Shown here: positions 29,663 through 44,805 of the stretch, piece by piece | Position numbering within the stretch: the first letter of the stretch is position 1 | How the letters are laid out: every line of letters begins with the position of its first letter | Origin: an uncultured Acidimicrobiales bacterium | GTDB taxonomy: Bacteria; Actinomycetota; Acidimicrobiia; Acidimicrobiales; DATKAS01 | Assembly: GCA_963847855.1 (NCBI GenBank) | Contig: CAWKBM010000007.1 | Location: forward strand, 85,079 to 149,078 | Length of the DNA: 64,000 nucleotides | Direction: 5' to 3' | Program-made: the position numbers and the translations under genes | The notes under the pieces: generated by a model | Told to the model about the DNA's origin: nothing | The model's database searches: none | What the model saw: only the letters and a program-made list of their open reading frames with translations

Positions 29663-29672
29663 GCCGCTTTTC

Positions 29673-29709: not shown

Positions 29710-29720
29710 AGGAAACGGCG

Positions 29721-30500: not shown

Positions 30501-31510
30501 GTGCTCTCCCGGACGATCAGCTCAGGACTGAGCAGGATCTCCTGGCGAGCCCGCGCCGGTTCCGCACGGGCGCCGAGCAAGAGTTCGGCAGATCTCCGGC
30601 CGATCTCGTACGTCGGTTGGGCGACGACCGTGAGCGAGGGCTGCAGCAGCTTGGCCCACGGTGCGTCGTCGAAGCCCACGACGCGCATGTCGTGCGGCAC
30701 CGACAGCCCCTCGTCGCGCAACGCCTCCAGCGCGCCGAGGGTCATGAGGTTGTTGCCGACGAGCACCGCGTCAGGGCGATCGGGTCGAGCGCAGAGCTCG
30801 CGCATCGCCTTGTAGCCGCCCGCCTCCCGGAAGTCCTGCCGGATGATCAGTGTGGGGTCAACGGTGCGCCCCGCTCGTCGAAGTGCCTTGCGGTAGCCGC
30901 TCACCCGCTCGGTCGCAGTGCTGAGCCGTTGGGGGCCGGTGATGCACGCGATCCGGAAGGCGCCGACTTCGATCAGGTGCCTCGTCGCGTCGGCAGCCCC
31001 GCGTTCGTTGTCGACGAGGACGCAGTCGATCGTGCGCCCGACTGGCCGGCGATCGACCGCGACGATGGGGATGCCCGCGTCGCGCAGCGGCTCGAGGTTC
31101 GAGACCCGCGTCGACGCGACGGCGATGACCACGCCCGACATCCGCTCGGAGATCGCGACGTCGATGTACTCGGCCTCCTTGCGGACGTCCTCGTCCGAGT
31201 TGCAGAGCATCACCCGGAAGCCGCGCTCGCGTCCCCCGTCCTCGATGCCCCGGATGATCGACGTGAAGAACGGGTTCTCGATGTCGGCGACGATCACGGC
31301 CCACACGTCGGTCGCTTGGCGGCGCAGCGCTCGAGCGGGACCGAACGGCTGATACCCGAGCTCCGCGACGGCGGCACGCACTCGGGCGGCGCGGTCGGGC
31401 GACACCTCGCGGGTGGCGTTCAGCACTCGTGAGACCGTCGCGGGAGAGACACCGGCTGCTCTGGCCACCTCTCCGATCGTGACCGCCCGGCTCGCCACCG
31501 CGGCGAGCAT
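30497..31510 (-). CDS. LacI family transcriptional regulator
   Basis: VTIGEVARAAGVSPATVSRVLN helix-turn-helix plus a periplasmic-binding-fold body. Confidence 0.95.
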   Translation of the reverse strand: MLAAVASRAVTIGEVARAAGVSPATVSRVLNATREVSPDRAARVRAAVAELGYQPFGPARALRRQATDVWAVIVADIENPFFTSIIRGIEDGGRERGFRVMLCNSDEDVRKEAEYIDVAISERMSGVVIAVASTRVSNLEPLRDAGIPIVAVDRRPVGRTIDCVLVDNERGAADATRHLIEVGAFRIACITGPQRLSTATERVSGYRKALRRAGRTVDPTLIIRQDFREAGGYKAMRELCARPDRPDAVLVGNNLMTLGALEALRDEGLSVPHDMRVVGFDDAPWAKLLQPSLTVVAQPTYEIGRRSAELLLGARAEPARARQEILLSPELIVREST

Positions 31511-31513
31511 ACG

Positions 31514-32293
31514 ATGCTCCGCGCTACGCTCCTGAAATCGATTTCCCGATCTCCTCCGAGCGGTCCAGGTCGTTCTGGCAGAACGGCTATCTGCAGGTCG
31601 ACGAGCAGGTCATGCCGCTCGACGAGCTGGCCTGGTTTCGCCGCGACATACGACGAGATCTTCGTGAACCCGAAGGTGTTCCGCCTCCACTTCGACGGCG
31701 AGCGCGACGACGGCACCAACGGCGTGATCGACCAGATCCTCGGTCCCGAGCTCACCGTGCCCGAGATCCTCGACACGACCTGGTTCGCGAACGCCAAGCA
31801 GCTCGCGTGCGCCTTGCTCGAGATCGACGAGTCCGAGATCCTCGACCACAGTGGCACCCACATGATCTTCAAGCCCGCGGGCGTGGGCCGTGACACGCCG
31901 TGGCACCAGGACGAGGCCTACTGGGAGCAGCCGAAGGTCACTGCGCACAGCCTCTCGGTGTGGACACCGCTCGACGACGTGACCGTCGACAGCGGCTGCA
32001 TGCAGTTCCTGCCCGGCTCACATCGCAGCGACATCCTCGGCCATCGCAACGTGGGTGTCGGGCAGCCTCTTCTGCTCGAGGAACCACCCGACCTCAGCAC
32101 GAGCGCCGCCTGCCCGATCATGGCAGGCGCGGCAACTGTGCATCACTGCCGCACTATCCACTACAGCGGCCCGAACTACAGCGAACGCCCACGACGGGCG
32201 ATCTCCGCGCTGATTCACGGCCCGGTCGTGCCACGCGACGAGCCGCTCGAACGCACCTGGCTGCCGCTCGCTCCGAAGTTCTTGAAGACGTAG
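31514..32293 (+). CDS. PhyH family dioxygenase, paralog 4 (N-terminal frame disrupted)
   Basis: TPWHQDEAYW and CMQFLPGSH are in the 31514 frame. The conserved N-terminus SFWQNGYLQVDEQVMPLDELAWFR is in another frame that has no canonical start. The frames switch at about 31635-31649. Confidence 0.75.
   Translation: MLRATLLKSISRSPPSGPGRSGRTAICRSTSRSCRSTSWPGFAATYDEIFVNPKVFRLHFDGERDDGTNGVIDQILGPELTVPEILDTTWFANAKQLACALLEIDESEILDHSGTHMIFKPAGVGRDTPWHQDEAYWEQPKVTAHSLSVWTPLDDVTVDSGCMQFLPGSHRSDILGHRNVGVGQPLLLEEPPDLSTSAACPIMAGAATVHHCRTIHYSGPNYSERPRRAISALIHGPVVPRDEPLERTWLPLAPKFLKT
31533..31546. promoter_or_regulatory. Putative LacI-family operator TGAAATCGATTTCC (perfect 12-bp palindrome core)
   Basis: GAAATCGATTTC at 31534-31545, about 25 nt from the lacI start codon. 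Confidence 0.55.
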
Positions 32294-32311
32294 CGGCCAG
32301 CGCAGGCAATC

Positions 32312-32852
32312 ATGGTGCCCATGGCTGCCACGAGCGCCGCACAAGTCCACGCCGACGTCCTGTCCCTGTTCGACGAGGCCTGGCCGCGCTTCGCTTCGCG
32401 CCTCGACGGCCTCGAGCGGGATGAGTACCTCTGGGAGCCGGTGCCTGGCTGCTGGACGGTGCGCCAGACGCCGGACGGGGTGCTGGCCGATTGGGCGGAG
32501 TACGCCGACCCGGCTCCCGTCACGACGATTGCCTGGCGTCTGTGGCATGTGGCCGTCGATTGCCTGGACAGCTACTCGGCTCGCGTCTTCGACGCTCGTG
32601 GCACCGAGTTCGTCGATCAGCAATTCACTCTCGACGTCGACGAAGCCCTCACCGCGCTGGCTGCTTCGGGCGAGGTGTTTCGCTCGGGATTGGTGGAGCG
32701 GTCACCCGAGTCGCTGTACGACCTGCTCGGTCCGGCGTGGGGTCCGTATCACTCCTCGACGTTCCTCGCGCTCGATGTTGCACGCGCTCGACGAGGTGAT
32801 CCACCACGCGGCGGAGATCGCGCTGCTCCGCGACCTGTACCCCTCGCGCTAG
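32312..32852 (+). CDS. DinB family protein, apparent frameshift
   Basis: WTVRQTPDG...TTIAWRLWHV. The C-terminal MLHALDEVIHHAAEIALLRDLY-stop is in the 32421 frame. The switch is at about 32771-32780. Confidence 0.75.
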
Positions 32853-35671
32853 TCCCGGCGAGCGAGGATTGCCAGGGTGAGCTCGACGCGCGTCGAGAGG
32901 GCGAGCTTGCGGTAGGCGGATGACACGTGCGACTCGACGGTGCGCCGCGAGAGGTAGAGGCGCTGCGCGATCTCGACGTTGCTGAGCCCGTCGGCGAGCA
33001 GCTCGAGCACGAGCCGTTCGCTCTGCGAGATCGCCTCCCACCCGAAACGGGGACGTGCCGGCGTGGCGCGTTGCCTGGCGGTTGCCTTGGCGCTTCTCGT
33101 GGCGGCCGCGTCAGCTGCCCACGCATCCGCGCCCATTGCGGCATAGATGGATGACGCCTCGAGCGCAGCCTCGTCCGCGTCCGCCGGGGCTCCTACCTCC
33201 CGCAACACGTGGGCAGCATCGAGCAACGCGTCGGCGAGCAGTGGCCGGCGGCTCGTCATCCGGGCCAGGCCGACGGCCTTCAGCGAGCGCTCGGGATCAG
33301 CGTCGACCAAGCCCCGGGCGCGCTCGGCGTCGACGCGGAACGACCGCAGGTCGGTCCGTTCTGCCGCGTCCTCGATGTCGGCCGCGACCGTCTTGGCGCG
33401 TGCTCGATCTCCGGTGGCCAGCGCGAGTCTCACGACTCGTGGCCCGATCCACTGGCGACCGGACTGCATGTCGAACGCGCCGAACGTCTCCCAGACCTCG
33501 CCGACCGATCGAGATGCGGCGTCGAGATCTCCCTCGGCTTCCGCGATCAGCGACTTCGCCATCATCACGTGGTCCCACCCGAGCTGCGCTCGCGTCGGCG
33601 ACAGCTCGCGCTCGGCAAGCTCAGACTCGACGCGTGCAGTCGCGACATCGCCGCGGGCGACAGCGATCTGAGCGAGGAATGAGTGGCACCAGACCATCAC
33701 CCCGAACGCGTCTGCGTTCTCGGACGAGTCGAGGGCCGCGAGGGCGAATGCAGTCGCATCGCCGAGGTCGCCGACCCGGAGCGCACCGAACGATGCGAGC
33801 GCGTCATATGCCGGTACCGCCCACGCCGAGCCTGTCCGGTAGGCAACCTCCCGCCCGCGGCGCACGGCTCGGTCGAGTTCGTCGAAGCCGTCGGTTTCGA
33901 GGAACACGATCCCCGCGGTGAACCACGGCTGATACTGATGTGCGGCGACGCAGCTGGGGTGGTCGGCGAGCTCGACCGCGAGCCGGGCGTGCCGCAACGC
34001 TTCGGCGGTCTCGAGCGGCAGCAGCTCGAGGAAGCAGCAGAGGCTGTGCACTGCGGCCTGCGTCGTGAGGTCACCGAGCGCCTCACCCTCTCGCAGCGCG
34101 TCCATGGCCGCCGCCCATGCGCCACTTCGGTCAAGGGCGAGGAACCTCCCGAACGCGAGCTCCGCGAGCAGCCGAGCCCGTGCGACCGGTTCGTCGGTCA
34201 GGCCGGCGACGGTCGCGACGTGGAGGACGGCGTCGCCCGGCCTCCCGTCGACCACCGCAGCCAGCGCGAGCTCACGGTGCACCTCGGCTCGGACGTGCGG
34301 CGACAGCTCTCGATCGCGGAGCAGTGAGGCGCCGAGTACCTCGGCGTCCGCCGCACGACCCGTGCCGGCGAGCGCTCGGACGCGTGCCGTGGTGATCTCG
34401 ATCGACGGCTCCGTCGCGAGCGATGCCGCGACCTCCGCCAACCTCAGCGAGGTGCCCGGCGATCTGCGGTTGATCGAGTTGGCGACGTCGCACAGCCACT
34501 CGATCGCCTGTTGATCGCCCGGCTGGGCACCGAGCGCGAAGTGCTCGGCGACGTCGAGGGGCGAGGCGCCGAGTGCGATCAGCGTCCGCGCCGCGTCGAC
34601 GTGCATCGCTGCGAGCGCGCTCGGCGCGATCGTGTCGAGCACCGCGGTGCGATAGAGCTCGTGGCGAAACCCGTAGCCCGTCTCGTCCGGTACGAGGATG
34701 CCGGCGACCTCGGCGCGGTCGAGCACGGGCACCAGGTCGAGTGCGCGTCGGCCGGTGACTGCGGCGAGCCGCTCGACGCTCGACGTCGATCCGAGCACCG
34801 CCGCGGCCTGCGCGAGCGTGAACGCCTCACCATCGAGCTCGGCGATCCGCGACGCGAGCACCCCGCTCGGTCGTAGGGAGGCTCCGGCGGGCAGCTCGAC
34901 TTGCGACTCGGTCGAGACGAGCTGCTGGTCGAGTGCCTCGGCGAGCGCATGGATCATCAGGGGGCTGCCCTTCGTTGCCTTGATCGCCTCGGTGAAGCGG
35001 GGTCCGATCGCACCGCCCACGAGTCGGCTCGCGAGGTGGATCGATTCGTCGGTCGAGAGCGGCGAAAGCGTGATCCGAGGGAGCTCGTCCTCACGCGTCT
35101 GAGTGAGGAAGCGATGGAGGTCGGTGGCTGGCGCGGGAGGGCGACTGGTGAGGACGAGCCCGAGGGGCGAGGTTGCGATGCGGTCGAGCACGAGGCCGAG
35201 GAAGCGGAGCGTGCCGCCGTCGGCCCAATGCAGATCCTCGATGACGAGCACGACCGGCGTGGTGAGGCACTCGGCCTCGAGCGTCTCGAGGAGTCGGTCG
35301 GCGACTGCGAACTCGGCCGTCGATCCTGCGCCTGCCTCGAGCAGCGCTCGGGTGCCGGCGGGTTCCCCGCGGGTGGTGTCGAGCGATGGGGTCACGTCGA
35401 GCGCCTCGTGAATCGCGCCGAAGGGGCGCTCGATCGTGAAGCCGTGTGCGGATCCGATGCGGATGGCGACCTGCGACGCGCCTCTCCGGCGGCTCGTGTC
35501 GTTCGTGCCCCCGATGACCTCGCCGATCAACCGGGACTTGCCGCTGCCGGCATCTCCGACGACGAGCACCGCGGAGCCGCGGCCGGCGGCGGCGCCATCG
35601 ACGAGCGCGTGGAGCGCGAGCGACTCGTCGACCCGCCCCACGAACGGCGCCTCGCGGCCGCTCCGGGTCAT
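32849..35671 (-). CDS. STAND-type AAA ATPase / LuxR-family transcriptional regulator (940 aa)
   Basis: PFVGRVDE...VLVVGDAGSGKSRL P-loop, VLVIEDLHWAD Walker B, a long helical-repeat sensor region, and a C-terminal GerE HTH SERLVLELLADGLSNVEIAQRLYLSRRTVESHV. Confidence 0.9.
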   Translation of the reverse strand: MTRSGREAPFVGRVDESLALHALVDGAAAGRGSAVLVVGDAGSGKSRLIGEVIGGTNDTSRRRGASQVAIRIGSAHGFTIERPFGAIHEALDVTPSLDTTRGEPAGTRALLEAGAGSTAEFAVADRLLETLEAECLTTPVVLVIEDLHWADGGTLRFLGLVLDRIATSPLGLVLTSRPPAPATDLHRFLTQTREDELPRITLSPLSTDESIHLASRLVGGAIGPRFTEAIKATKGSPLMIHALAEALDQQLVSTESQVELPAGASLRPSGVLASRIAELDGEAFTLAQAAAVLGSTSSVERLAAVTGRRALDLVPVLDRAEVAGILVPDETGYGFRHELYRTAVLDTIAPSALAAMHVDAARTLIALGASPLDVAEHFALGAQPGDQQAIEWLCDVANSINRRSPGTSLRLAEVAASLATEPSIEITTARVRALAGTGRAADAEVLGASLLRDRELSPHVRAEVHRELALAAVVDGRPGDAVLHVATVAGLTDEPVARARLLAELAFGRFLALDRSGAWAAAMDALREGEALGDLTTQAAVHSLCCFLELLPLETAEALRHARLAVELADHPSCVAAHQYQPWFTAGIVFLETDGFDELDRAVRRGREVAYRTGSAWAVPAYDALASFGALRVGDLGDATAFALAALDSSENADAFGVMVWCHSFLAQIAVARGDVATARVESELAERELSPTRAQLGWDHVMMAKSLIAEAEGDLDAASRSVGEVWETFGAFDMQSGRQWIGPRVVRLALATGDRARAKTVAADIEDAAERTDLRSFRVDAERARGLVDADPERSLKAVGLARMTSRRPLLADALLDAAHVLREVGAPADADEAALEASSIYAAMGADAWAADAAATRSAKATARQRATPARPRFGWEAISQSERLVLELLADGLSNVEIAQRLYLSRRTVESHVSSAYRKLALSTRVELTLAILARRD

Positions 35672-35706
35672 CGGCGGACTGTATATGGCCACGCCAGCGT
35701 CGAGTT

Positions 35707-35720
35707 CCGTGTGCACACGG
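35707..35720. promoter_or_regulatory. Perfect 14-bp palindrome CCGTGTGCACACGG in a divergent promoter region
   Basis: Lies in the 84-nt gap between the luxR-STAND start (35671) and the hsp70-like start (35756). Confidence 0.4.
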
Positions 35721-35755
35721 ACGACATCGCTGCGTGCGCGCGGGTCCATGCTGAC

Positions 35756-37504
35756 ATGGAGTCCGACTCGTCGAGCCGCGGCTACGTGCTGGGTGTCGAC
35801 CTCGGCACGACGTTCACTGCTACCGCACTGTTCCGTGACGGGCATGCCGAGGTCGTGCAGCTCAGCCAACGAAGCGCGGCCGCTCCGTCCGTCGTCTTTC
35901 TGAAGCCTGACGAGTCGATGCTCACGGGCGACGCGGCGGTGCGTCGCGGCGTTGCCGAGCCCGCTCGGTTGGGCCGTGAGTTCAAGCGGCGAGTGGGAGA
36001 CCCTGCTCCCGTCCTCCTCGGTGGAGTGCCGATCGCGCCGGAGCACCTCATGGCCCGTCTGCTGCGGGCCACGATCGACGCGGTGAGCGAGCGTGAGGGC
36101 GGCGCACCCGACACGGTGGTGGTCTCCCATCCGGCGAATTGGGGTCCCTACAAGCTCGAGCTGCTCGACCAGACCTGTCGGATGGCGGGTGTGAGCGACG
36201 CACTGCGCATCCCTGAGCCCGAAGCCGCGGCAGTGCACTACGCGTCGCTCGCTCGCCTCGAAGTCGGGTCGGTGGTCGCGGTCTACGACCTCGGCGGCGG
36301 GACGTTCGACGCGGCGATCCTGCGCAAGACGGCCGACGGGTTCTCGGTGCTCGGCCAGCCCGAGGGGATCGAGAGGCTCGGTGGCATCGACTTCGACGAA
36401 GCCGTCGTCGCCCATGTGCGCGAGGCGTGTGCGGACGCCATCGCGGGGCTCGACTTCGACGATCCGTCGACGACCGCGCTGCTCGCCCGCCTGCGGCAGG
36501 ACTGCGTCGAGGCGAAGGAGGCCCTCTCCTTGGACACCGAGACGTCGGTGCCCGTGGTGCTCCCAGGGCTACGGACCGAAGTACGGCTGACACGCGGCGA
36601 GCTCGAATCCATGATCCGAGTGCCGCTCGTCGAGACGGTCGCCGCGGTCGAGGCGCGCGATGGCGAGCGCACAGGTCGACGCCGACGATCTGACGAGCGT
36701 GCTGCTTGTCGGTGGCTCGTCGCGCATCCCCATGGTCGCCGAGCTGATCACCGCGGAGCTCGGACGACCGGTCGCGGTGGACTCTGACCCGAAGCACGTG
36801 GTCGCCCTCGGCGCGGCGCGGTGGGGGGCGATGCGTCGAGTCGAGGAGCCCGCGTTGGTCGCCGCGTCTGCGGCCGTCGCCGCGCCCCCGCGCGACCGGA
36901 GCGACCGCCTTCGATGTCTCCTCCGCCGGCACCGCCGCCGCTCCCGGCACCGAGTCCGGCCCCGCCCGCGGACGTCCCCCCGGCTGCGGTTTCGGAGACG
37001 GGTCCGGATCACGGGCCACGGCGGAAGAGGCGGTGGATCCCGATCGCCGCGGGCGCGGCGGCGGTCGCGGTCGCGGCGATCGCGGCGGTGGTCGTCTTCG
37101 CAGGCGGAGGCGACGGCGGAACCGGTGGCGCGGCGGGCGCCGCCGACACGCAGCAGACAACGGGTCAGATCACCCCGTGCCCGCCCGCGGGGCAGCCCGC
37201 GGTGTGCATCACCGCGGTCGAGCGGAACGGCAACGCGCTGCAGGTCGCGTTCACCACCCACGACGTGACCCTCGTCAGCGACCCGAGCGCCGAGGAGCTC
37301 ACCGCGACGTTCTTCCTCGGCTCGATCGACAGCACGGCGAGCACCGGTGTCGCGTTGCGTCAGTGGGGTGCGAGCTCGCCGTTCGAACAGCAGTACTCCG
37401 CGGAAGAGCTCGACGGCGCGAGTGCCGTGTGCGTGCTCGTCGGAAACGGCGCCGGTCAGATCGCGCCGGGAACCGGCAACTGCGCCGAGCTTCCGAAGGC
37501 CTGA
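35756..37504 (+). CDS. Membrane-anchored Hsp70/actin-fold ATPase with extracytoplasmic Cys-containing C-terminal domain, two apparent frameshifts
   Basis: VLGVDLGTTFTA, VSHPANW, VAVYDLGGGTFDAAIL, and LLVGGSSRIPMV (the last in the 36660 frame). The 36821 frame then carries a Pro-rich linker, RRKRRWIPIAAGAAAVAVAAIAAVVVFAG (TM helix) and a 4-Cys domain. Confidence 0.8.
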
Positions 37505-38967
37505 CCAGAGGTCGCCAGCATCCCCTCGTAGGACCGGACCATCACGCTCGCCGCGTCGCTCAGCGCGCGCGATGCGAGTGGGTGCTCCGCCCGGCGGCGC
37601 CACCGCTCGACCGATCGGGTGATCGCGACCGCCACGTCCTGATCGGAGGCATCGTCGGGGAGGTCGAGGCGAGACCGGGTCTCGAGGCCGGAACCTTCGA
37701 CGATGCGGTCGATCTCTGCGAGCTCGTTGTCGCCAATGTCGAGCGCGCCGTTTCGAGCGGCGATCAGGAGGCGGAGCTCCGCCAGCTCGTGTGCGCCTGC
37801 TTCGACCATCTCGATGCCGCGTGTCACGTCGTCACGTGCGACGGGCCACTCGCGCGTGATCCGCTCGAGCCCGGCGAGCACCGCCTGAGCCTTGAGCAAC
37901 CCGCTGCGCGCTGCGAAGCGAGTCGCGAGGAGCATGCGGAGCTCGTCGATGCCGCTCACGCGGCGTAGCTCGGCTGCGAGCGCCGGCGCGGTCGGCGTGG
38001 TGCGGTCCTGGATGAGCACCCGCGCGAGCCGCACGCCGAAGAGGCCGAGGCGATCGAGCAGGTGGGCGCGATCCTCCGGGGAGATGTCGATCGCGCTCGG
38101 TCTCGTCGCGAGCCGATCGCAGGAGAGCAGCAGGGCCTCGGCGTCGTCCTCCGGTGCGGTGGCGAGCGTGGTGAGCAGAGCGAAGTCGCGCTCGGTCAGG
38201 AGTGACGCACCGAAGCCGAGCAGCCCGGCGACCGGCACGGTCGTCTGGCACAGCCGACGGATCTGGGGATCGGCTCCATACCGCCGCGCGACGTGCTCCG
38301 CGCTGCGCATGGCCGAGATGCGAGCCGCGCCGATCTCGTCCGCTCGGGATACCACACCGATCGTGTTCACGGGGCTCGGCCGGCCGGCGTCGTCGTCGTG
38401 AAAGGCCTCGAGGAAGCGCACGTCGTGCGCGTGCATGTGCCGAGTCAGGTAGATCACCGCGTCGGCAGCTGACGGCTGATCGCCCGGCAGCAGGAACTCT
38501 CGGCCGCGCGGATCGAGCGTGCCATCGAGCGTGCCGAGACCCGGTGTGTCGATGAGCGTCATCCCGCGCAGGAGCGGCGACGGCCACTCGACGACGACTC
38601 GATCGACGTCGGCATCGTGGATGTCGCCGAGATCGACGTCGATCGAGCTCTCGCTGCGGTGTAACGACACGCGCTGCAGCTGTCCTCGCACGGAAGCCTT
38701 TGCTTCGTAGGACCGACCGTGGACGTACCACGTGACGTGACGTGTGCAGTCGCCGGCGTCGACCGCGGCGAGGCCATGTCCGACGAGGGCGTTGAGCAGC
38801 GTCGACTTTCCGGCCTTCACCCTCCCTGCGACCGCGACGCGCAGCGGCTCGTCGAAGCGAGCCCTCAAGCCGGCGATCGCGGGCGCGGCTTGCGGATGGC
38901 CCTCGTACGTGTCGGCCGCGAGGTCGAGCAGTGCCGAGACCCGCCCGGGCAGTCGCACGCCGGTCAT
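37456..38967 (-). CDS. Dynamin-family GTPase, IniC-like (503 aa)
   Basis: VAVAGRVKAGKSTLLNAL (G1), LIDTPGLG (G3), VVSRADE (G4-like). Its ATG overlaps the upstream stop (ATGA at 38964-38967). Confidence 0.85.
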   Translation of the reverse strand: MTGVRLPGRVSALLDLAADTYEGHPQAAPAIAGLRARFDEPLRVAVAGRVKAGKSTLLNALVGHGLAAVDAGDCTRHVTWYVHGRSYEAKASVRGQLQRVSLHRSESSIDVDLGDIHDADVDRVVVEWPSPLLRGMTLIDTPGLGTLDGTLDPRGREFLLPGDQPSAADAVIYLTRHMHAHDVRFLEAFHDDDAGRPSPVNTIGVVSRADEIGAARISAMRSAEHVARRYGADPQIRRLCQTTVPVAGLLGFGASLLTERDFALLTTLATAPEDDAEALLLSCDRLATRPSAIDISPEDRAHLLDRLGLFGVRLARVLIQDRTTPTAPALAAELRRVSGIDELRMLLATRFAARSGLLKAQAVLAGLERITREWPVARDDVTRGIEMVEAGAHELAELRLLIAARNGALDIGDNELAEIDRIVEGSGLETRSRLDLPDDASDQDVAVAITRSVERWRRRAEHPLASRALSDAASVMVRSYEGMLATSGQAFGSSAQLPVPGAI

Positions 38968-40821
38968 GCGGGTGGTCCGTCGATCGGTGGTCCATCAACC
39001 GCGGCGGAGATCGCGTCGTGCGCCTTCGCTGCGAGGTCTCGGATGGCGGTCACGTGCCCGAGCGCGTGTGACACCTCGGCGAGTCGGTCCGCAGCCTGCT
39101 GGTCGGCGAGCGCCGCGCCCCGCTTGGCCGCGTCGTACGACGCGGCGGCCGAGCGCAGCATCTCGTCGGCGCGGGCAGTGAAGTGGTCGCGCAGGCTGCG
39201 TTGCGTGCGCCGCACGGTGTCACGGGTCTCCTTCGACAGCGCGCCGGCGACCTCGTCCGCGTATTGGCGCACGGCCGCCTTCGCCATTGCCTGCCGCTGC
39301 GCGAGCTGGCGCTTGGCGTCCTCCCGGATGCCCCGGTAGCCCACGGCCGCGCCGGCCGCCAGCGCGACGGGCGCGGCCAGGGTGAGCCCGAGCACGCCCG
39401 TGACGAAGCCAGTGAGCACCGCGCCGCTGTATGACGTGCGCACCGCTCCCATCGCGCGCGCGCCGACTCCCGCCCTCTTCATCTCCTTCACCGTGATCGG
39501 GGAGTCGCCAGGGGGAGGGGACTCACCCGCGGCGCTGGGGATGAGGTCATCGACCGCCGCTTCCTCCTCGGAGAACACGGCCTCGACGCGCCGCGCGGCA
39601 GGCGACGAGCCGGTCGTGCACCGCGAGCTGGTAGTCGCTGGCGGCAGTCGTGATCAGCCGTCGGAGCTCGGGCTCGAACTCGACCCATACGGTGGCGGGA
39701 TCGGCCTGATCGAGTGCTTCCTCGGCCGCAGTGATCAAGCCACGGAACCGACTCCGAAGATCGTCTCCGAGGTCGGTGGTGATGTCCCCCATCGCGTCAC
39801 CCAGGACTTGCTGCCATCGGCTCGCCGCGCCGCGCAGCCGCGTGGCCTCAGCCGTCGCCGCTTCGAGCTGCGCGGCCCGCTCGGCATGCCCCGCGGGGTC
39901 TCGCAACGTCGCCGCCTCTTGCTCGAGCGGAGTGGCCACGTGAGCACATGCCTCCAGAGCGGCTGCGACAACTCCCAGCGCGGTGCGATCCCGTGTCTCG
40001 CCAGCGACGCGTTGCAGCCAGACACTCACCTCGGGGAGGCGCGACTCGACCGCGAGCTCCCGGTCCTGGGACGCCCGCGCTCGCCGTGCCAGCTCTGCGG
40101 AGATGCCGATCACCGGCACGTCGAGCGCGCGGAAGGTCTGGTCGTCGAGTGCCACGACGACCTCCCAGGTGCGGTGGATGTCGATCTTCGTCTTGGTGAC
40201 GAGGACGGCGTCGAGACGGTTGCGGATCGTCTCCACGTGCTCGGCCTCCGAGGCGGTGACGGGCTGCCCCGCATCCGACACGACGACCGCTGCGTCGCAG
40301 GTCGGGAGCACCGCGGCGAGCGCCATCGCCGCCTGTGGTGTCGCCATGCCCCCGGTCCCGGGCATGTCGATCAGTGTGAGCCCGCTGCGGAGCAGCGTCG
40401 AGGGCAGGGCGACGTCGACAGCGGTGAGACCGGCGACCGTGACTTGCTGCCCGTCCTCTCGGATCCACGCCGGAAGGTCTTCGAACTCGAGCGGCTTCCG
40501 CTCTGTGAGATCGGCTGTCTCGCTCGTGAAGATCGCGGCGGCCGTGGACTCGGGCTCGTAGCGCACGATCGTCGGGATCGCGGTCGCGACGTCGTCATCG
40601 ACGGGGCAGACGGGCTGCCCACACAGCGCGTTGACCAGGCTGCTCTTGCCTTGCTTGAACTCGCCCGTGACGATGACTCGGGCGGGGCTCGCGAGCTGAT
40701 CGAGCAGCGCGCGCACCGCGCTTGCCAAGTCCGCGCGTCGCCGTTCGTCGCAAAGGTCCGCGACGAGCTCGCCGATCTGCGCGGCAGCGTCGCGGTGGGT
40801 GAGACCGTCGCTCTCGGCCAT
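38964..40821 (-). CDS. Dynamin-family GTPase with hydrophobic hairpin, IniA-like; split into two ORFs (39547..40869 and 38964..39578)
   Basis: VIVTGEFKQGKSSLVNAL (G1), LIDMPGTGG (G3), VTKTKID (G4). The second ORF carries GAVLTGFVTGVLGLTLAAPVALAAGAAVGY and helical stalk-like sequence. Combined length is about 620-635 aa. Alternative starts at 40830, 40857 and 40869. Confidence 0.75.
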
Positions 40822-40902
40822 GGGTCTCATCGTGAGGCAGCGGGGCAGCTCGGTCATCCGTGCGCGCACGGATGACCCAATGGCGCGCCGGGCGCATCGT
40901 CA

Positions 40903-40930
40903 GACGAACAGCGTGTCGACGAACAGCGTG
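40903..40930. promoter_or_regulatory. Tandem direct repeat GACGAACAGCGTG x2 (15-bp period)
   Basis: Perfect 13-mers at 40903-40915 and 40918-40930. They sit about 20 nt upstream of the GTG at 40950 (RBS GAAGGAGAG) and in the divergent region toward the IniA-like gene. Confidence 0.45.
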
Positions 40931-40949
40931 CTGATGAAGGAGAGTCGCC

Positions 40950-42800
40950 GTGGCCGCCAAGAAGACCATCGCCCCCGCACCCGTGCCCAGCCGCACGTCG
41001 AGCGGATCGAAGACGGTGAAGAAGGACAACACCATCACCGCGACCCGCACGGACGCCGACGCCACCCGCGAACAGGATCCGGGCGACGCCGGCATCCACG
41101 ACGACACCGTTGATTCGGTGCTCGCGGGCATCGCCACGAGCCGCAACGACGCGTTGATCCGCGCGACGGGCGGTCAGTCCTCGCCTGACGACGACCCGAC
41201 GGGTGGTCGCGGGAGCACCGGCAAGAGCTCGGTCGAGCAGTCCTCTGACGCCGGGCCGGAGGATGGCGGGCAAACGACCACGACGCGGCTTCCCGCCGGC
41301 GGGGTCGTGCAGACCGACAAGGACGAAGGCGTCAGGAGCAAGGGCCACGCGGTCAAGGACGACGGCAGTGAGATCACCCGCATCGGCAACCTGATCGGGA
41401 CTGGCGGGCCCTCGGGTCCGGGACGTGACGCGCTCCAGCAGGCGCTCGCGGAGCAGGATGCCGCGGCGACACCTGGCACCGCGGTCGACTCCAAGGGCAA
41501 CAAGGTCAGCCAGACGCCGAGCGGTGCAACGAAGACGGTCAGTCCCGACGGCACGGTCACCATCTCCTCGGGCAACATCCGCAGCGAGAGGAAGGCCGAT
41601 GGAACGTTGACCGTCGTCGACGCGGTCACCAACACCCAGACGACCACGAGACCCGACGGCTCGTCGGAGACGCGTGACGCGACCACGAACACCGTGATCG
41701 ACACGACCCCGAAGCTGCAGGATCCGGCGCCCGCTCAGGGCCCCCCGGGTTCGAGCGAGCAGGAGTCACCGGACGACGATGGACCTGGCGAGCCGGAAGA
41801 CAGCACGCCCGCGGACCCCGACGACGACGGGCAGAGCGTCGAGCCCGACCCCAACGGGCAGAGCACCGAGCCCGCAGATGACCCCAACGGTCAGAGCCTC
41901 GTGCCGCAAGACGAGGTCACCGGTGGTGCCGACGATCCAGAAGGCGACCCGGACGGCCAGAGCATCGATCCCGAGCTCGATCCCGAAGGGCAGAGCATCG
42001 ATCCCGAGCTCGACCCCGAAGGGCAGAGCGTCGAGCCTGAGCCCGATCCGGGCACGAGCGCGGATCCTGCCGACGACCCAAATGGTCAGTCGGTCGAGCC
42101 CGATCCCGAGCCCGATCCCGCGGACGACCCCAACGGACAGAGCACCGAGCCCGAGCCCGAAGACGACGATGCCAACGGGCAGAGCGTCGAGCCCGAGCCG
42201 GAGCCCGAGGAGGGTCAGAGCTCCGATGCGGAGCAGAGCGTGTCGCAGACCGGTGACCCGGGCGGTGGCGATCCCGGCGATCCCGACAGCGGAGGCTCCT
42301 CGCTTCCTCCCGACATCTCGCAGGCGATCAAGTCCGACATCGCCAGGCTGCGCGGCGCCAAGCCGGCGACGGGGGACGGCGTGACCGATCCCGGTCCTGA
42401 GGACACCGGCGACGAGGTCGACCGCAGCGTGGCTGTCGTTCCCGACAAGTTCAACCAGCTCCTCGGCGGTGACAACTTCAATCGTGACGGCGACAACGTC
42501 GTCCACACCGGCAACGCGGAGGTGCCGACCGGCCCGCATGCCGGAAACGGCTTCACCGACCCCGGGCCCGACGATGACCAACCCCCTCAGTTCTCGGGGC
42601 CCGAGGAGGATCCCTTCGACCAGGGCCCTCAGCTCAAGCCCATCGAGTCGAGGACGACGACGAACGACGACTCCGACGACGATGATGACGACGACGGCGC
42701 CACGATCGGCTCGCCCCTCTTCGTGTCGACCGCGGTACGCCAGTTCCAGTTCGATCACGTCCCGGCGATCGCCGACGACGATGACGACCCCGACGACTGA
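40950..42800 (+). CDS. Polyacidic, low-complexity repeat protein (616 aa)
   Basis: High-GC3 ORF. By hand count, about 137 D/E versus about 38 K/R. There are ten GQS-centred repeats and a run of nine consecutive D (residues 575-583, DDDDDDDDD) near the C-terminus. No obvious signal peptide or TM segment. Confidence 0.7.
   Translation: MAAKKTIAPAPVPSRTSSGSKTVKKDNTITATRTDADATREQDPGDAGIHDDTVDSVLAGIATSRNDALIRATGGQSSPDDDPTGGRGSTGKSSVEQSSDAGPEDGGQTTTTRLPAGGVVQTDKDEGVRSKGHAVKDDGSEITRIGNLIGTGGPSGPGRDALQQALAEQDAAATPGTAVDSKGNKVSQTPSGATKTVSPDGTVTISSGNIRSERKADGTLTVVDAVTNTQTTTRPDGSSETRDATTNTVIDTTPKLQDPAPAQGPPGSSEQESPDDDGPGEPEDSTPADPDDDGQSVEPDPNGQSTEPADDPNGQSLVPQDEVTGGADDPEGDPDGQSIDPELDPEGQSIDPELDPEGQSVEPEPDPGTSADPADDPNGQSVEPDPEPDPADDPNGQSTEPEPEDDDANGQSVEPEPEPEEGQSSDAEQSVSQTGDPGGGDPGDPDSGGSSLPPDISQAIKSDIARLRGAKPATGDGVTDPGPEDTGDEVDRSVAVVPDKFNQLLGGDNFNRDGDNVVHTGNAEVPTGPHAGNGFTDPGPDDDQPPQFSGPEEDPFDQGPQLKPIESRTTTNDDSDDDDDDDGATIGSPLFVSTAVRQFQFDHVPAIADDDDDPDD
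41814..42221 (+). repeat. In-frame degenerate tandem repeats encoding D-P-(N/E/D)-G-Q-S-(V/I/T)-(E/D)-P
   Basis: Ten GQS units. Two adjacent 33-nt units (GQSIDPELDPE) are nearly identical. Confidence 0.85.
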
Positions 42801-42828: not shown

Positions 42829-44235
42829 GTGGCCGACGCCCGAGTTGCCGAGCTCCTCGCTGAGGTCGGCCTCCCGGGCAACGCTGCCGACGGCGTCACG
42901 ATCACGGGAAGCGAGCCGATCTACGCGAGCCCGTTTCCGGTCGCGTCGTCGGCGGCCGTCGCGCTCGGCGCTGCTGCCGCGGCTGCTGCGCTGATCTGGC
43001 GCGACAAGACGGGCGAGGAGCAGACGGTCACGGTCGACACTCGCCGAGCCGGCGTCGCACTTCTGAGCTTCGTCTTCCAACAGCTGCTCGATGGCCCCAC
43101 GCCGCAGCGGGTGGCCGACAACCCGTTGATCGCGCTTTACGAGTGCCGTGACGGACGGTGGGTTCACTTGCACGGCGCATTCCCGCGCCTCGCCGACCCG
43201 ACGAGGCGAGTTCTCGGGATCGGCGAGGATGCCGACGCAGCCTCGGTTGCCGCCGCGGTGGCGAAGTGGGAGGCGCAAGCGCTCGAGGACGCGCTCGCCG
43301 AAGCGCGGATGTGCGGCGCGATGGTGCGCACGCGAGACGAGTGGGCCGCGCATCCGCAGGGCCAGGCCCTCGGTGCGTTCGCGCGGGTCGAGATCGAGAA
43401 GATCGGTGATTCGTCGCCCGAACCCGCGGGCGGGAGGGCCCGCCCGCTCGATCGTGTGCGAGTCCTCGACCTCACTCGCATCCTTGCCGGACCGACCAAC
43501 GGACGCACGCTCGCCGAGCACGGCGCGGACGTGCTGCTCGTGAACTCGCCGAAGCTCGACAACGTGGCGCCCTTCGTGATGGACACGAGTCACGGCAAGC
43601 GCTCGACGTTCCTCGATCTCGACGACTCCGAGGACAAGACGCGCCTGCTCGACCTGGTCGCGTCCGCCGATGTGTTCGCGCAGGGCTACCGCGGTGGAGC
43701 GATGGAACATCGCGGGCTCGGCCCCGAGGAGCTGGCGACCCGACGTCCCGGCCTCGTGTACGTCACGATGAACTGCTACGGCGACACGGGACCCTGGCGG
43801 CAACGACCCGGGTGGGAGCAGCTGGCGCAGACGGTGAGCGGCATCGCCGACGTTCAGGGAGCCATCGGTCCTCCGGTGCTCATCCCCGCGGCCGCGTGCG
43901 ACTACACGACGGGATACCTCGCCGCGCTCGGCACGATCGCGGCGCTCTGGCGCCGGAGCCGCGAGGGCGGCAGCTACCACGTGCGGGCCTCGCTCTGTCA
44001 GACCGCGATGTGGTTCGCTCGCGAGCCGCGCGTCGATCGCGACAAGGCGACCGGGTTCGGCGACGTCGCAGACCTCCTCGTCACGACCGACACGCCGTTC
44101 GGCCGTCTGCGCCATCTCGGTCCCGTCGCGCAGCTGAGCGACACGCCCTCTCACTGGTCATTGCCGACGACACCGCTCGGCGCGCACGCTCCCGAGTGGT
44201 TGCCCGCGAACTCATCGCCGCCTGCGGGCAAGTAA
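42829..44235 (+). CDS. CoA-transferase family III (CaiB/BaiF) protein
   Basis: VRVLDLTRILAGPTNGRTLAEHGADVL motif. Confidence 0.9.
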   Translation: MADARVAELLAEVGLPGNAADGVTITGSEPIYASPFPVASSAAVALGAAAAAAALIWRDKTGEEQTVTVDTRRAGVALLSFVFQQLLDGPTPQRVADNPLIALYECRDGRWVHLHGAFPRLADPTRRVLGIGEDADAASVAAAVAKWEAQALEDALAEARMCGAMVRTRDEWAAHPQGQALGAFARVEIEKIGDSSPEPAGGRARPLDRVRVLDLTRILAGPTNGRTLAEHGADVLLVNSPKLDNVAPFVMDTSHGKRSTFLDLDDSEDKTRLLDLVASADVFAQGYRGGAMEHRGLGPEELATRRPGLVYVTMNCYGDTGPWRQRPGWEQLAQTVSGIADVQGAIGPPVLIPAAACDYTTGYLAALGTIAALWRRSREGGSYHVRASLCQTAMWFAREPRVDRDKATGFGDVADLLVTTDTPFGRLRHLGPVAQLSDTPSHWSLPTTPLGAHAPEWLPANSSPPAGK

Positions 44236-44238
44236 GAG

Positions 44239-44805
44239 GTGATGGACAAGAGCACGGACGCCGAGGTGATCGCTGCGTCACTTGACGATCCCGCGTGCTT
44301 CGCTGAGCTCTTCGACCGTCACGCCCGCGTGATCTTCCGCTATCTCGTTCGTCGCGTCGGTCCCGAGGCCGACGACTTGCTCGGCGAAGTGTTCCGCGTC
44401 GCGTTCGAGCGACGTGACAGCTACGACCCGTGTCGACCCGACGCGGCCCCGTGGCTGTACGGCATCGCGACCCGCGTCGTCTCCAAGCAACGACGCAGCG
44501 AGGCTCGACGCATCAAGGCGATGGCGCGGTTTGCTGCGCAACGACCGGGTGTAGAGGACTTGGCTGAACGGGTCGCAGCGTCGACTGACGCATCGGATGA
44601 TTGGACACGTGTGGCAGACGCAGTGGCGGAGCTCCCCTCCGCCGAGTGGGACACGCTCCTCCTCTATGTCTGGGAGGAGCTCAGCTACGAGCAGATCGCG
44701 GCCGCGCTCGACATCCCCGTCGGGACGGTCAGGTCACGGCTCAATCGCGCTCGCGCTCGACTGCGCGACGCGTCCGCCCCGGCAGAGGAGAGGATGGGGT
44801 CGTGA
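44239..44805 (+). CDS. ECF-type RNA polymerase sigma factor
   Basis: Region 2 is FAELFDRHARVIFRYLVRRVG...DDLLGEVF. Region 4 is LSYEQIAAALDIPVGTVRSRLNRAR. Confidence 0.9.
   Translation: MMDKSTDAEVIAASLDDPACFAELFDRHARVIFRYLVRRVGPEADDLLGEVFRVAFERRDSYDPCRPDAAPWLYGIATRVVSKQRRSEARRIKAMARFAAQRPGVEDLAERVAASTDASDDWTRVADAVAELPSAEWDTLLLYVWEELSYEQIAAALDIPVGTVRSRLNRARARLRDASAPAEERMGS

What the first reader, a model, noticed from the sequence alone, without database searches (positions are those of the whole stretch)
32849..42800. Ini-like dynamin module with non-canonical partners: STAND/LuxR regulator, membrane-anchored Hsp70-type ATPase and a polyacidic repeat protein
Two dynamin-family GTPases are translationally coupled (ATGA at 38964-38967). 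The first is about 620-635 aa with a hydrophobic hairpin and the second is 503 aa. Their sizes match mycobacterial IniA (about 640 aa) and IniC (about 490 aa).

In mycobacteria the iniBAC envelope-stress operon is controlled by a neighbouring STAND ATPase, IniR. Here a 940-aa STAND/LuxR protein lies 2 kb away. The rest of the locus differs from iniBAC in several ways:
- There is no Gly/Ala-rich IniB.
- An Hsp70 nucleotide-binding-domain protein with a TM anchor and a 4-Cys outer domain sits between the regulator and the dynamins, with its 3' end overlapping the IniC-like 3' end by 49 nt.
- A 616-aa protein with a net charge near -100 is divergent from the IniA-like gene.
- Both divergent promoter gaps contain conspicuous symmetric or direct repeats.

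I do not know of a described system with this composition. A membrane-remodelling or envelope-damage (possibly phage-response) module is a reasonable hypothesis.
Basis: partly seen in the sequence, partly recalled or inferred. Interest (0 to 1): 0.7.

Follow-up and report, generated by a model that had tools for sequence, protein, structure and literature searches.

The report
Ini-type dynamin locus with anchored Hsp70
This is a variant of the known actinobacterial iniA/iniC dynamin envelope-stress locus; its membrane-anchored Hsp70-type ATPase turns out to be a common but apparently undescribed neighbour of these dynamins, and one shared DNA palindrome ties the five genes into a likely regulon.

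Summary
All five genes are present at the stated coordinates. However, in this assembly the IniA-like gene carries one frameshift and the Hsp70-like gene carries two. Both are intact in two close relatives, and all five genes have dN/dS of 0.11-0.19.

- **Dynamins.** The first is a full-length homologue of M. smegmatis IniA (E 1e-73). The second is the coupled IniC-like partner.
- **Hsp70-like protein.** It has a nucleotide-binding domain, no substrate-binding domain, one TM helix and a conserved outer beta-sandwich. It is not exotic: an orthologue lies within 6.4 kb of the dynamin pair in 31 of 36 well-flanked actinobacterial loci. I found no paper describing this.
- **Regulator.** The STAND/LuxR protein is not an IniR orthologue (29.6 bits against a cutoff of 750).
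- **Acidic protein.** It has a net charge of -99 and no IniB domain. Its small family occurs only in loci that carry this regulator type.
- **Other loci.** Most other loci carry IniR-like and IniB-family genes in those two slots.
- **Shared palindrome.** TCCGTGnnnnCACGGA occurs exactly twice in the 64 kb, once in each divergent promoter. It is conserved in relatives, and it changes together with the regulator's recognition helix.

Verdict: a new variant of a known kind, most likely an inducible membrane-repair regulon. The function is inferred.

The parts
32849..35671 (-). STAND/LuxR regulator, 940 aa. Walker A at 35531-35557, LuxR-type HTH at 32903-32983. Not an IniR orthologue.
   Evidence: AAA_16 E 1e-15 and GerE E 5e-14. 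The IniR model NF038181 matches only the HTH, 29.6 bits vs cutoff 750. The start codon is conserved in L001 and L084. Full-length homologues at 31-45% identity lie in L002, L042, L088 and L089.
35706..35721 (.). Operator 1: palindrome TCCGTGTGCACACGGA, in the centre of the 84-nt STAND/Hsp70L divergent gap.
   Evidence: One of only two matches in 64 kb. Conserved at the same place in L001 and L084 while the flanks diverge.
35756..37504 (+). Membrane-anchored Hsp70-type ATPase (Hsp70L), about 581 aa after correction. Layout: cytoplasmic nucleotide-binding domain, Pro-rich linker (36905-36982), TM helix (37034-37108), outer beta-sandwich (37127-37501). Interrupted in this assembly: +1 nt near 36651, -4 nt near 36891, premature TGA at 36785-36787.
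   Evidence: HSP70 E 6e-47. Aligns to DnaK residues 4-351 only, with no substrate-binding domain. Frameshifts. Intact 578-aa relative P0121 has 79% identity over the full length. TM helix. Outer domain: AF2 pLDDT 88, conserved in at least 24 dynamin-linked relatives.
37456..38967 (-). IniC-like dynamin GTPase, 503 aa, no TM segment. P-loop at 38800-38826. Start overlaps the iniA-like stop (ATGA).
   Evidence: Dynamin_N E 7e-11. At least 571 species hits at 44-54% identity across Actinomycetota. dN/dS 0.12.
38964..40821 (-). IniA-like dynamin GTPase, about 618 aa after correction. P-loop at 40639-40665, hydrophobic membrane segment at 39336-39425. One extra base near 39598 splits it in this assembly. 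The likely start is the conserved ATG at 40821 (MAESDG).
   Evidence: Matches M. smegmatis IniA (6j72) at E 1e-73, residues 36-613 vs 15-596, and the alignment runs through the frameshift site. Intact in L001 (613 aa) and L084 (625 aa). dN/dS 0.12. Start conservation.
40852..40877 (.). Operator 2: perfect 26-bp palindrome GGTCATCCGTGCGCGCACGGATGACC, with core TCCGTGCGCGCACGGA at 40857-40872. It lies in the iniA/acidic-gene divergent gap, 31-56 nt upstream of the iniA start.
   Evidence: Conserved in L001 and L084.
40903..40932 (.). Tandem 15-nt direct repeat (2 copies). Probably a recent duplication and not a functional site.
   Evidence: Single copy in L001 and L084.
40950..42800 (+). Polyacidic low-complexity protein, 616 aa, net charge -99, no Cys, Trp or TM segment. 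It has DPxGQSxEP-type repeats and a conserved C-terminal module (42303-42623). It takes the IniB position but has no IniB domain.
   Evidence: Charge. Repeats. No Pfam, NCBIfam or PADLOC family. dN/dS 0.19. Only 16 representatives among 1.84 billion. The C-terminal module is found only in loci with the window-type STAND. hhalign to the L002 569-aa protein gives probability 72%, E 3e-5.

Best explanation
**What it is.** The locus is an Acidimicrobiia version of the actinobacterial ini-type dynamin system. It is built from two layers.

- **Layer 1, found across Actinomycetota.** It consists of iniA, iniC and a single-pass membrane protein.
  - iniA encodes a membrane-inserting, GTP-dependent fission dynamin.
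  - iniC is translationally coupled to iniA and encodes a soluble partner dynamin.
  - The membrane protein has an Hsp70 nucleotide-binding domain on its cytoplasmic side, with no substrate-binding domain. On its outer side it has a disulfide-containing beta-sandwich.
- **Layer 2, specific to this lineage.** It consists of a STAND ATPase with a LuxR-type HTH and a polyacidic disordered protein. These occupy the places that IniR and IniB hold in most other loci.

**Proposed mechanism.**
1. On an envelope or membrane signal, the STAND regulator oligomerises.
2. It binds the 16-bp palindrome TCCGTGnnnnCACGGA that sits in both bidirectional promoters.
3. It thereby co-controls its own gene, hsp70L, iniA-iniC and the acidic gene.
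4. IniA/IniC then remodel or reseal the cytoplasmic membrane.
5. The anchored Hsp70-type ATPase acts as an ATP-driven membrane adaptor. It would recruit, position or recycle the dynamin assembly and link it to the outside of the membrane.

**Shown:** homologies, domain layouts, neighbourhood conservation, operator conservation and purifying selection.

**Inferred:** regulator-operator binding, the inducing signal, any physical contact between Hsp70L and the dynamins, and the physiological role.
For: - **IniA homology.** Full-length match to M. smegmatis IniA. That protein performs GTP-dependent membrane fission in vitro (PMC6715688).
- **Dynamin pairing.** ATGA coupling of the two dynamin genes.
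- **Hsp70L linkage.** An orthologue (40-63% identity over the nucleotide-binding domain) lies within 6.4 kb (median 1.2 kb) in 31 of 36 loci with at least 7 kb of flank on each side. It is often directly downstream of iniC on the same strand.
- **Same system as iniBAC.**
  - 27 of 33 upstream acidic proteins in those loci carry IniB_NTERM.
  - One representative of the 33-locus STAND family was scanned and matches the IniR model over its full length.
- **Five genes as a unit.** Same order in the window, L001 and L084, and all five are intact in L084. All five families recur in L002 and L042.
- **Operator in the window clade.** Exactly two copies in 64 kb, one in each divergent gap. Both are conserved in L001 and L084.
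- **Operator elsewhere.** The same operator lies next to STAND homologues of 40-43% identity in L088 (1 copy) and L089 (4 copies, each just upstream of a called polyacidic ORF).
- **Helix and operator change together.**
  - Loci with recognition helix SRRTVESHVS(S/A)AYRKL have this operator.
  - L002 and L042, with SRRT(V/I)EAHLRSV(F/Y)(M/T)KL, have GGTGAnnTCACC at the corresponding sites.
- **Selection.** dN/dS is 0.11-0.19 for all five genes.
- **Hsp70L ATPase motifs.** Motifs matching the DnaK phosphate-1, phosphate-2 and adenosine motifs are retained (DLGTT, DLGGGTFD, LVGGSSRIP; motif names from my own knowledge).
Against: - No expression, binding or interaction data exist for this locus.
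- In this assembly iniA and hsp70L are frameshifted, so the module may be inactive in this particular organism.
- Seen from the Hsp70L side the linkage is partial. Only 1 of 3 sampled relatives lies next to dynamins.
- To my knowledge the mycobacterial model locus has no such gene.
- The STAND and acidic genes can occur without dynamins within 10 kb (L089). In L088 no operator was found upstream of iniA. So layer 2 is not strictly dedicated to the dynamins.
- The helix-operator link rests on only two operator types.
- The outer domain has no informative structural match.
Confidence: 0.6

Rival explanations
1. The module is a decaying pseudogene cluster in this organism. The three frameshifts are real mutations, and iniA and hsp70L are no longer functional here.
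For: - All three frameshifts fall within about 3.7 kb of two genes.
- Ten other suspicious ORF junctions in the window all resolved into separate, complete Pfam domains.
- One lesion is a 4-nt deletion, not a simple homopolymer slip.
- The public record itself calls the truncated 343-aa product (P0122).
Against: - dN/dS is 0.11-0.12 for both genes, including the out-of-frame middle segment. Any inactivation would therefore be very recent.
- Both genes are intact in L001 and L084.
- L001 shows many frame breaks in other genes, which suggests error-prone assemblies in this sample group.
- The region has the highest GC content in the window, 71-72%.
Confidence: 0.3
2. It is an anti-phage defence system of the dynamin type (like Eleos/LeoABC or B. 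subtilis DynA) that limits phage-induced membrane damage.
For: - Weak PADLOC hits to LeoA and LeoBC: E 7e-13 and 2e-10 for the IniA-like protein, 1e-8 for the IniC-like protein.
- B. subtilis DynA contributes to phage defence (PMC12998192, listed).
- STAND ATPases are common in defence systems (my own knowledge).
Against: - The hits are at the level of the dynamin superfamily, far weaker than the IniA match.
- The flanking genes are metabolic, and no mobile-element domains were called in the flanks of relatives L001 and L084. Only five of the window's own flanking genes were scanned.
- Synteny holds across relatives.
- The dynamin pair is present in at least 571 species, with a stable neighbourhood in the 80 loci examined, rather than patchily.
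- The STAND carries a DNA-binding HTH and palindromic operators. That is typical of a transcription factor, not an effector.
Confidence: 0.1
3. It is a cell-division or septum-stabilising dynamin pair like Streptomyces DynA/DynB, with Hsp70L as a divisome-associated factor.
For: - Streptomyces has a characterised dynamin-like pair, DynAB, that modulates cell division (bioRxiv 10.1101/2025.06.23.661029). That DynA/DynB are one membrane-anchored and one soluble partner is my own recollection, not checked in the paper.
- Some Hsp70L relatives carry a Septum_form domain (PF13845; P0174, P0184).
Against: - The closest characterised homologue by sequence is IniA, and the loci carry IniB-family and IniR-like genes.
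- No division genes were seen in the neighbourhoods.
- Orthology to DynA/DynB was not tested.
Confidence: 0.12
4. The Hsp70-like gene is only a frequent neighbour with an independent role, such as an envelope-facing actin-fold ATPase unrelated to the dynamins.
For: - Paralogues with other outer domains occur away from dynamins (L086, L087).
- Its position and orientation relative to iniAC vary among loci.
Against: - Presence in 31 of 36 well-flanked loci across several orders.
- Frequent same-strand placement 40-150 nt after iniC, or just before iniA with a 2-nt gap (L085).
- The shared operator in the window clade and in L002.
Confidence: 0.1

Closest known systems
Mycobacterial iniBAC operon with its regulator IniR (M. 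tuberculosis Rv0339c-Rv0343; M. smegmatis IniA, PDB 6j72)
   Same: - IniA orthologue by full-length sequence.
- A second dynamin of about 500 aa, translationally coupled downstream.
- An adjacent STAND ATPase with a LuxR-type HTH.
- A low-complexity protein gene beside iniA.
- M. smegmatis also lacks iniB (PMC5760070).
   Different: - The regulator is a different STAND family (IniR model matched only in the HTH).
- The low-complexity protein has no IniB_NTERM domain. It is Asp/Pro/Gly-rich rather than Gly/Ala-rich, and it is transcribed divergently.
- A membrane-anchored Hsp70-type ATPase is part of the locus.
- Induction by cell-wall drugs or trehalose is unknown here.
iniB-iniA-iniC-hsp70L loci with IniR-like regulators in Pseudonocardiales, Micromonosporales and other Acidimicrobiia (this survey; no description found in the literature)
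   Same: - The same IniA, IniC and Hsp70L orthologues, including the Hsp70L outer domain.
- A polyacidic protein next to iniA. The IniB-family proteins there have a median net charge of -49.
   Different: Those loci use IniB_NTERM proteins (27 of 33 scanned) and an IniR-like STAND. The window clade uses an unrelated acidic family and another STAND family, with its own operator.
Cyanobacterial 'chaperone clade' dynamin-like proteins with a DnaK-domain gene downstream (Jilly et al. 2018, PMC5827413), and the DnaJ-like domain on the Nostoc BDLP1 neighbour (Liu et al. 2018, PMC6104087)
   Same: [quoted passage not shown]
   Different: - A different phylum.
- Homology between the cyanobacterial DnaK-domain proteins and this TM-anchored protein, which has only the nucleotide-binding domain, was not tested.
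- No mechanism is known in either case.
Heterotypic bacterial dynamin pairs (Campylobacter DLP1/DLP2, E. coli LeoABC/Eleos, B. subtilis DynA)
   Same: Two dynamin-like genes paired in one operon. The expected mode of action is a hetero-oligomer that binds and remodels membrane.
   Different: - Only superfamily-level similarity.
- Those systems have no Hsp70-type or STAND/LuxR partner.

Membership tests
IniA (mycobacterial dynamin-like fission GTPase) | Full-length sequence homology to solved IniA, including the GTPase domain, helical bundles and the membrane segment | tested here: met
   phmmer against the PDB: 6j72_A at E 1.1e-73, query 36-613 vs chain 15-596. The hydrophobic segment aligns with the IniA membrane region.
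IniA (mycobacterial dynamin-like fission GTPase) | GTP-dependent membrane fission; induction by cell-wall inhibitors | not testable with these tools
   Needs biochemistry and transcriptomics.
IniA (mycobacterial dynamin-like fission GTPase) | Intact reading frame | tested here: not met
   One extra base near 39598 splits the gene in this assembly. It is intact in L001 and L084.
IniC | Second Dynamin_N protein of about 490 aa directly downstream of iniA and coupled to it | tested here: met
   503 aa, Dynamin_N E 7e-11, ATGA overlap.
IniC | Sequence orthology to M. tuberculosis IniC | not tested
   No mycobacterial IniC sequence was available. Indirect support: 44-50% identity to the second dynamin of loci that carry IniB_NTERM and IniR-like genes.
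IniR (NCBIfam NF038181) | Full-length match to the IniR equivalog model (cutoff 750 bits) | tested here: not met
   29.6 bits, covering only the HTH (model positions 738-817). A representative of the other loci's STAND family gives 195 bits over model positions 24-824.
IniR (NCBIfam NF038181) | STAND ATPase plus LuxR HTH architecture, encoded next to the ini dynamins | tested here: met
   AAA_16 + GerE, 940 aa, 1.8 kb from iniC.
IniB | IniB N-terminal domain (NF038175) | tested here: not met
   No NCBIfam hit for the acidic protein. In other loci, 27 of 33 upstream proteins have the domain.
Canonical Hsp70/DnaK chaperone | Nucleotide-binding domain with catalytic motifs | tested here: met
   PF00012 E 6e-47. 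Aligns to DnaK 4-351 with motifs matching the DnaK phosphate-1, phosphate-2 and adenosine motifs retained (motif names from my own knowledge).
Canonical Hsp70/DnaK chaperone | Substrate-binding domain and lid | tested here: not met
   All PDB and HMM matches end at about residue 361. What follows is a Pro-rich linker, a TM helix and a beta-sandwich.
Eleos / LeoABC dynamin defence system (PADLOC) | Strong matches to the LeoA and LeoBC models | tested here: inconclusive
   Only weak hits: E 7e-13 and 2e-10 for the IniA-like protein, 1e-8 and 3e-5 for the IniC-like protein.
Eleos / LeoABC dynamin defence system (PADLOC) | Defence-island or mobile genomic context | tested here: not met
   The flanks are metabolic genes and are syntenic in relatives.

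The most novel reading that the evidence does not exclude
The membrane-anchored Hsp70 ATPase, which has only the nucleotide-binding domain, is a dedicated third subunit of the actinobacterial IniA/IniC machine. It would be a transmembrane, ATP-driven adaptor whose outer beta-sandwich reads the state of the envelope. Its cytoplasmic domain would nucleate or dismantle the dynamin assembly. This would be a bacterial counterpart of the eukaryotic Hsc70-dynamin/clathrin partnership, and the missing recruitment factor for IniA/IniC.
Probability: 0.3. Interest if true: 0.75.

Novelty: new variant of a known kind. Interest (0 to 1): 0.55.

Why it matters
IniA and IniC matter for drug tolerance and vesicle release in mycobacteria. 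It is still unclear how they are recruited to damaged membrane and what partners they use.

- **Candidate partner.** Outside mycobacteria, the dynamin pair almost always travels with one particular TM-anchored Hsp70-type ATPase. That makes it a concrete candidate partner, testable in culturable genera such as Amycolatopsis, Pseudonocardia and Actinoplanes.
- **Interchangeable slots.** The window clade shows that the IniR and IniB slots can be filled by unrelated proteins of similar type: a STAND-LuxR regulator and a polyacidic disordered protein. This points to what those slots do rather than what they are.
- **Binding prediction.** The operator pair gives a precise prediction for regulator binding.

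Tried and rejected
- **RNA and signal scans.** Rfam over the whole window found nothing. The sigma-70 promoter and terminator scan of 32.5-43.2 kb found nothing useful.
- **Defence models.** PADLOC gave only weak dynamin-superfamily hits.
- **Outer domain of Hsp70L.** Fold search against the PDB gave no significant match (best E 7.5e-3, TM-score at most 0.43). It is a generic beta-sandwich.
- **Acidic protein, BLAST level.** tblastn of the whole protein or its halves against all loci found only the close relative L001. The link to L002, L042 and L089 needed a profile.
- **Acidic protein vs IniB-family and small acidic families.** No similarity; E values all above 5.
- **Direct repeat as a regulatory site.** The 15-nt tandem repeat was rejected because it is not conserved.
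- **Other frameshifts in the window.** Ten candidate junctions all proved to be ordinary gene boundaries. The screen was heuristic and not exhaustive.
- **Source record.** Look-ups of the window's own annotated products (P0122, P0257) found nothing on record, so the source record was not identified.
- **Literature.** Searches for a described IniA/IniC-Hsp70 link found nothing relevant.
Full report
**1. What is in the sequence**

The region lies in a 68-72% GC genome. The closest relatives are Acidimicrobiia MAGs. The best IniC-like hit is 92% identical. Contig L001 is syntenic with window 27.5-47.6 kb at 86-92% nucleotide identity.

- a 940-aa AAA_16 + GerE protein (32849-35671, minus strand);
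- an HSP70 protein;
- two Dynamin_N proteins;
- a 616-aa ORF with no known domain.

- The ATGA overlap of the two dynamin genes at 38964-38967 is real.
- The 49-nt convergent overlap of the Hsp70-like and IniC-like 3' ends is real. It recurs in L001 and L084.
- The net charge of the 616-aa protein is -99.

**2.

As assembled, two of the five genes are broken.
- The IniA-like gene is split into ORFs of 440 and 204 aa in different frames.
- The Hsp70-like gene reads out of frame for about 240 nt and meets a TGA at 36785-36787.

Aligned with L001, the window has one extra base near 39598, one extra base near 36651 and four missing bases near 36891. The public record itself calls the truncated 343-aa Hsp70 product (P0122, 100% identity, 156,904-bp contig).

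The corrected models are real proteins:
- IniA is intact in L001 (613 aa) and in L084 (625 aa).
- Hsp70L is intact in L001 and in L084 (578 aa; P0121, 79% identity over the full length).
- The alignment to solved IniA runs straight through the frameshift site.

Window-versus-L001 dN/dS values:

| Gene | dN/dS |
|---|---|
| IniA | 0.12 |
| Hsp70L | 0.11 |
| IniC | 0.12 |
| STAND | 0.16 |
| Acidic gene | 0.19 |
| Flanking genes | 0.09-0.46 |

The lesions are therefore either assembly errors or very recent.

I cannot decide between the two.
- L001 has many frame breaks in other genes, which suggests error-prone assemblies.
- On the other hand, ten other suspicious junctions in this window were ordinary gene boundaries.

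**3. Identity of the dynamins**

The corrected first dynamin matches M. smegmatis IniA (PDB 6j72) at E 1e-73, over residues 36-613 against 15-596. The match includes the hydrophobic membrane segment. IniA carries out GTP-dependent membrane fission in vitro (PMC6715688).

The second dynamin has no hydrophobic segment. It has relatives of 44-54% identity in at least 571 species of Actinomycetota. I had no mycobacterial IniC sequence, so orthology to IniC rests on position, size and the company it keeps (see section 4).

**4. Neighbourhood survey**

I fetched 80 loci around IniC-like genes from one genome per species. I then searched them with the window's proteins.

- **IniA.** An IniA-like gene lies next to the IniC-like gene in nearly every locus: directly upstream on the same strand in most, and a few kb away in three (L028, L073, L080).
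- **Hsp70L.**
  - An orthologue of the Hsp70-like nucleotide-binding domain (40-63% identity over about 350 aa) lies within 6.4 kb, median 1.2 kb.
  - This holds in 31 of the 36 loci that have at least 7 kb on both sides.
  - It is often immediately downstream of iniC on the same strand.
- **Taxa.** The loci come from Acidimicrobiales, Pseudonocardia, Actinomycetospora, Amycolatopsis, Saccharothrix, Actinophytocola, Actinoplanes, Micromonospora and others.

Clustering all ORFs in these loci showed two further frequent families.
- **IniB family.**
  - Proteins of about 320 aa with a median net charge of -49 lie directly upstream of iniA in 37 loci.
  - 27 of 33 scanned carry the IniB N-terminal domain, and 8 match the Rv0340 family.
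- **IniR-like STAND.** STAND/LuxR proteins of about 875 aa occur in 33 loci. One representative was scanned, and it matches the NCBIfam IniR model over its full length (195 bits).

So these are genuine iniB-iniA-iniC loci with IniR-like regulators, and Hsp70L is their commonest additional member.

I found no paper that describes this. The nearest precedents are cyanobacterial:
- a 'chaperone clade' of dynamin-like genes followed by a DnaK-domain gene (PMC5827413);
- a DnaJ-like domain on a Nostoc dynamin (PMC6104087).

Seen from the Hsp70L side the link is partial. Of three relatives sampled on long contigs, one sits 2 nt upstream of a dynamin pair and two sit elsewhere.

**5. The Hsp70-type protein**

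Only residues 11-361 align with DnaK (2v7y residues 4-351, E 1.5e-37). There is no substrate-binding domain. Motifs matching the DnaK phosphate-1, phosphate-2 and adenosine motifs are retained (DLGTT, DLGGGTFD, LVGGSSRIP; motif names from my own knowledge).

After the nucleotide-binding domain come a Pro-rich linker, one strongly hydrophobic helix and a C-terminal domain of about 110 aa.
- That domain has two invariant Cys, with two more in this clade.
- An HMM finds it in at least 24 dynamin-linked Hsp70L proteins, from Acidimicrobiia to Micromonosporaceae.
- AlphaFold predicts a confident beta-sandwich (pLDDT 88).
- It has no significant PDB match.

With no signal peptide and an N-terminal ATPase, the likely topology is ATPase inside and beta-sandwich outside. 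This topology is an inference.

**6. The regulator and the acidic protein are a lineage-specific pair**

The window's STAND/LuxR matches the IniR model only in its HTH (29.6 bits against a cutoff of 750). Full-length homologues occur in:
- L084 (78% identity);
- L088 and L089 (40-43%);
- L002 and L042 (31%).

The acidic protein belongs to a very small family: 16 representatives at E up to 1e-3 among 1.84 billion. The family shares a C-terminal module. An HMM of that module, searched against every six-frame ORF of the loci, hit only loci that carry this STAND type:
- L001 and L084;
- L002 (569 aa, net charge -83; hhalign probability 72%, E 3e-5);
- L042 (net charge -76, directly upstream of iniA on the same strand, which is the IniB position);
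- L089 (two copies).

It hit none of the roughly 80 others. L088 has acidic genes that look similar by eye (net charge -70 and -41), but the HMM did not reach them.

The STAND-plus-acidic pair therefore appears to replace IniR plus IniB. The pair can also occur without dynamins within 10 kb (L089).

**7. One operator in both promoters**

The two divergent gaps contain the same palindrome core, TCCGTGnnnnCACGGA:
- 35706-35721, between the STAND and Hsp70L genes;
- 40857-40872, between iniA and the acidic gene, inside a perfect 26-bp palindrome.

These are the only two matches in 64 kb, even when one mismatch is allowed (expected 0.56). Both sites are conserved in L001 and L084, while the surrounding non-coding sequence diverges.

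The same exact motif also lies beside more distant STAND homologues:
- once in L088, just after the STAND gene and ahead of acidic genes;
- four times in L089, each just upstream of a called polyacidic ORF.

In L002 and L042 a different palindrome, ATCGGTGAGATCACCTAG-like, occupies the corresponding positions:
- in the Hsp70L/STAND gap in both loci;
- upstream of iniA in L002;
- upstream of the acidic gene that precedes iniA in L042.

The predicted recognition helix tracks this difference:

| Loci | Recognition helix | Operator |
|---|---|---|
| Window, L084, L088, L089 | SRRTVESHVS(S/A)AYRKL | TCCGTGnnnnCACGGA |
| L002, L042 | SRRT(V/I)EAHLRSV(F/Y)(M/T)KL | GGTGAnnTCACC |

This is good circumstantial evidence for two points. 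First, the STAND protein binds these sites. Second, its own gene, hsp70L, iniA-iniC and the acidic gene form one regulon. Binding itself is not shown.

The 15-nt tandem repeat at 40903-40932 is not conserved.

**8. Interpretation**

The best-supported reading is an inducible membrane-remodelling or repair module of the ini type. The proposed roles of IniA, IniC, Hsp70L and the STAND regulator are set out under the best explanation. The role of the acidic protein is unknown, but it parallels IniB.

A phage-defence role is not excluded but has no specific support:
- PADLOC gives only weak LeoA/LeoBC hits;
- the neighbours are metabolic genes and are syntenic in relatives.

**9. Verdict**

This is a new variant of a known kind.

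The survey it prompted yields three useful points:
- an apparently undescribed partner gene found across Actinomycetota;
- a non-orthologous replacement of IniR and IniB;
- a precise operator prediction.

Noticed in passing
window 27400-32300: Upstream of the module lies a cluster of two PhyH dioxygenase genes, a LacI-family regulator and a DUF2961 (GH172) protein. It is syntenic in L001. L084 shows a PhyH and a DinB_2 gene on that side. It looks like an unrelated sugar or hydroxylation cassette.
   Followed up: partly
window 42829-44805: Directly after the acidic gene come a CoA-transferase family III gene and an ORF at 44239-44805. In L001 and L084 the matching ORF is an ECF-type sigma factor (Sigma70_r2/r4). 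I did not check whether that sigma factor relates to the envelope module.
   Followed up: no
L002 8109 and 15393; L042 3602 and 6531; L004 8067: A second operator type, ATCGGTGAGATCACCTAG-like, sits in the corresponding promoter regions of more distant loci. Looser variants (ATCGGGGAnnnnCCCCTA) lie near Hsp70L starts in L040, L048 and L065, which lack the window-type STAND.
   Followed up: partly
L089 6116, 7642, 8709, 12753: Four exact copies of TCCGTGnnnnCACGGA, each just upstream of a called polyacidic ORF, surround a STAND homologue (43% identity). No dynamin genes lie within 10 kb. This suggests the regulator's core targets are the acidic proteins.
   Followed up: partly
L001 13971-16200 and 19300-21000: The close relative L001 has its STAND gene and its DUF2961 gene broken into several ORFs, while its iniA and hsp70L are intact. 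That is the reverse of the window, and it hints at indel-prone assemblies in this sample series (ERZ250394xx/ERZ250395xx).
   Followed up: partly
proteins P0149-P0239; L086, L087: The TM-anchored Hsp70 family with only a nucleotide-binding domain is large. Its members have many different outer domains: DUF7159, DUF6242_C, DUF2510, Septum_form, Big_2 and PQQ/BamB-like repeats. Some members are not next to dynamins.
   Followed up: partly
loci L005, L006, L012, L014, L030, L031, L038, L055, L057, L066, L070, L072: A further small acidic protein family (about 215 aa, median net charge -44, no NCBIfam hit) recurs in 12 ini loci, either upstream of iniB or downstream of hsp70L. Actinomycetospora and Amycolatopsis loci carry yet another STAND/LuxR type (AbsR2-like) in place of the IniR-like one.
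   Followed up: no
window 41945-42199: The acidic gene contains 33-nt and 42-nt in-frame tandem repeats (DPEGQSIDPEL-type units). The indels relative to L001 in this stretch sum to multiples of three, so the repeat number varies between close relatives.
   Followed up: partly
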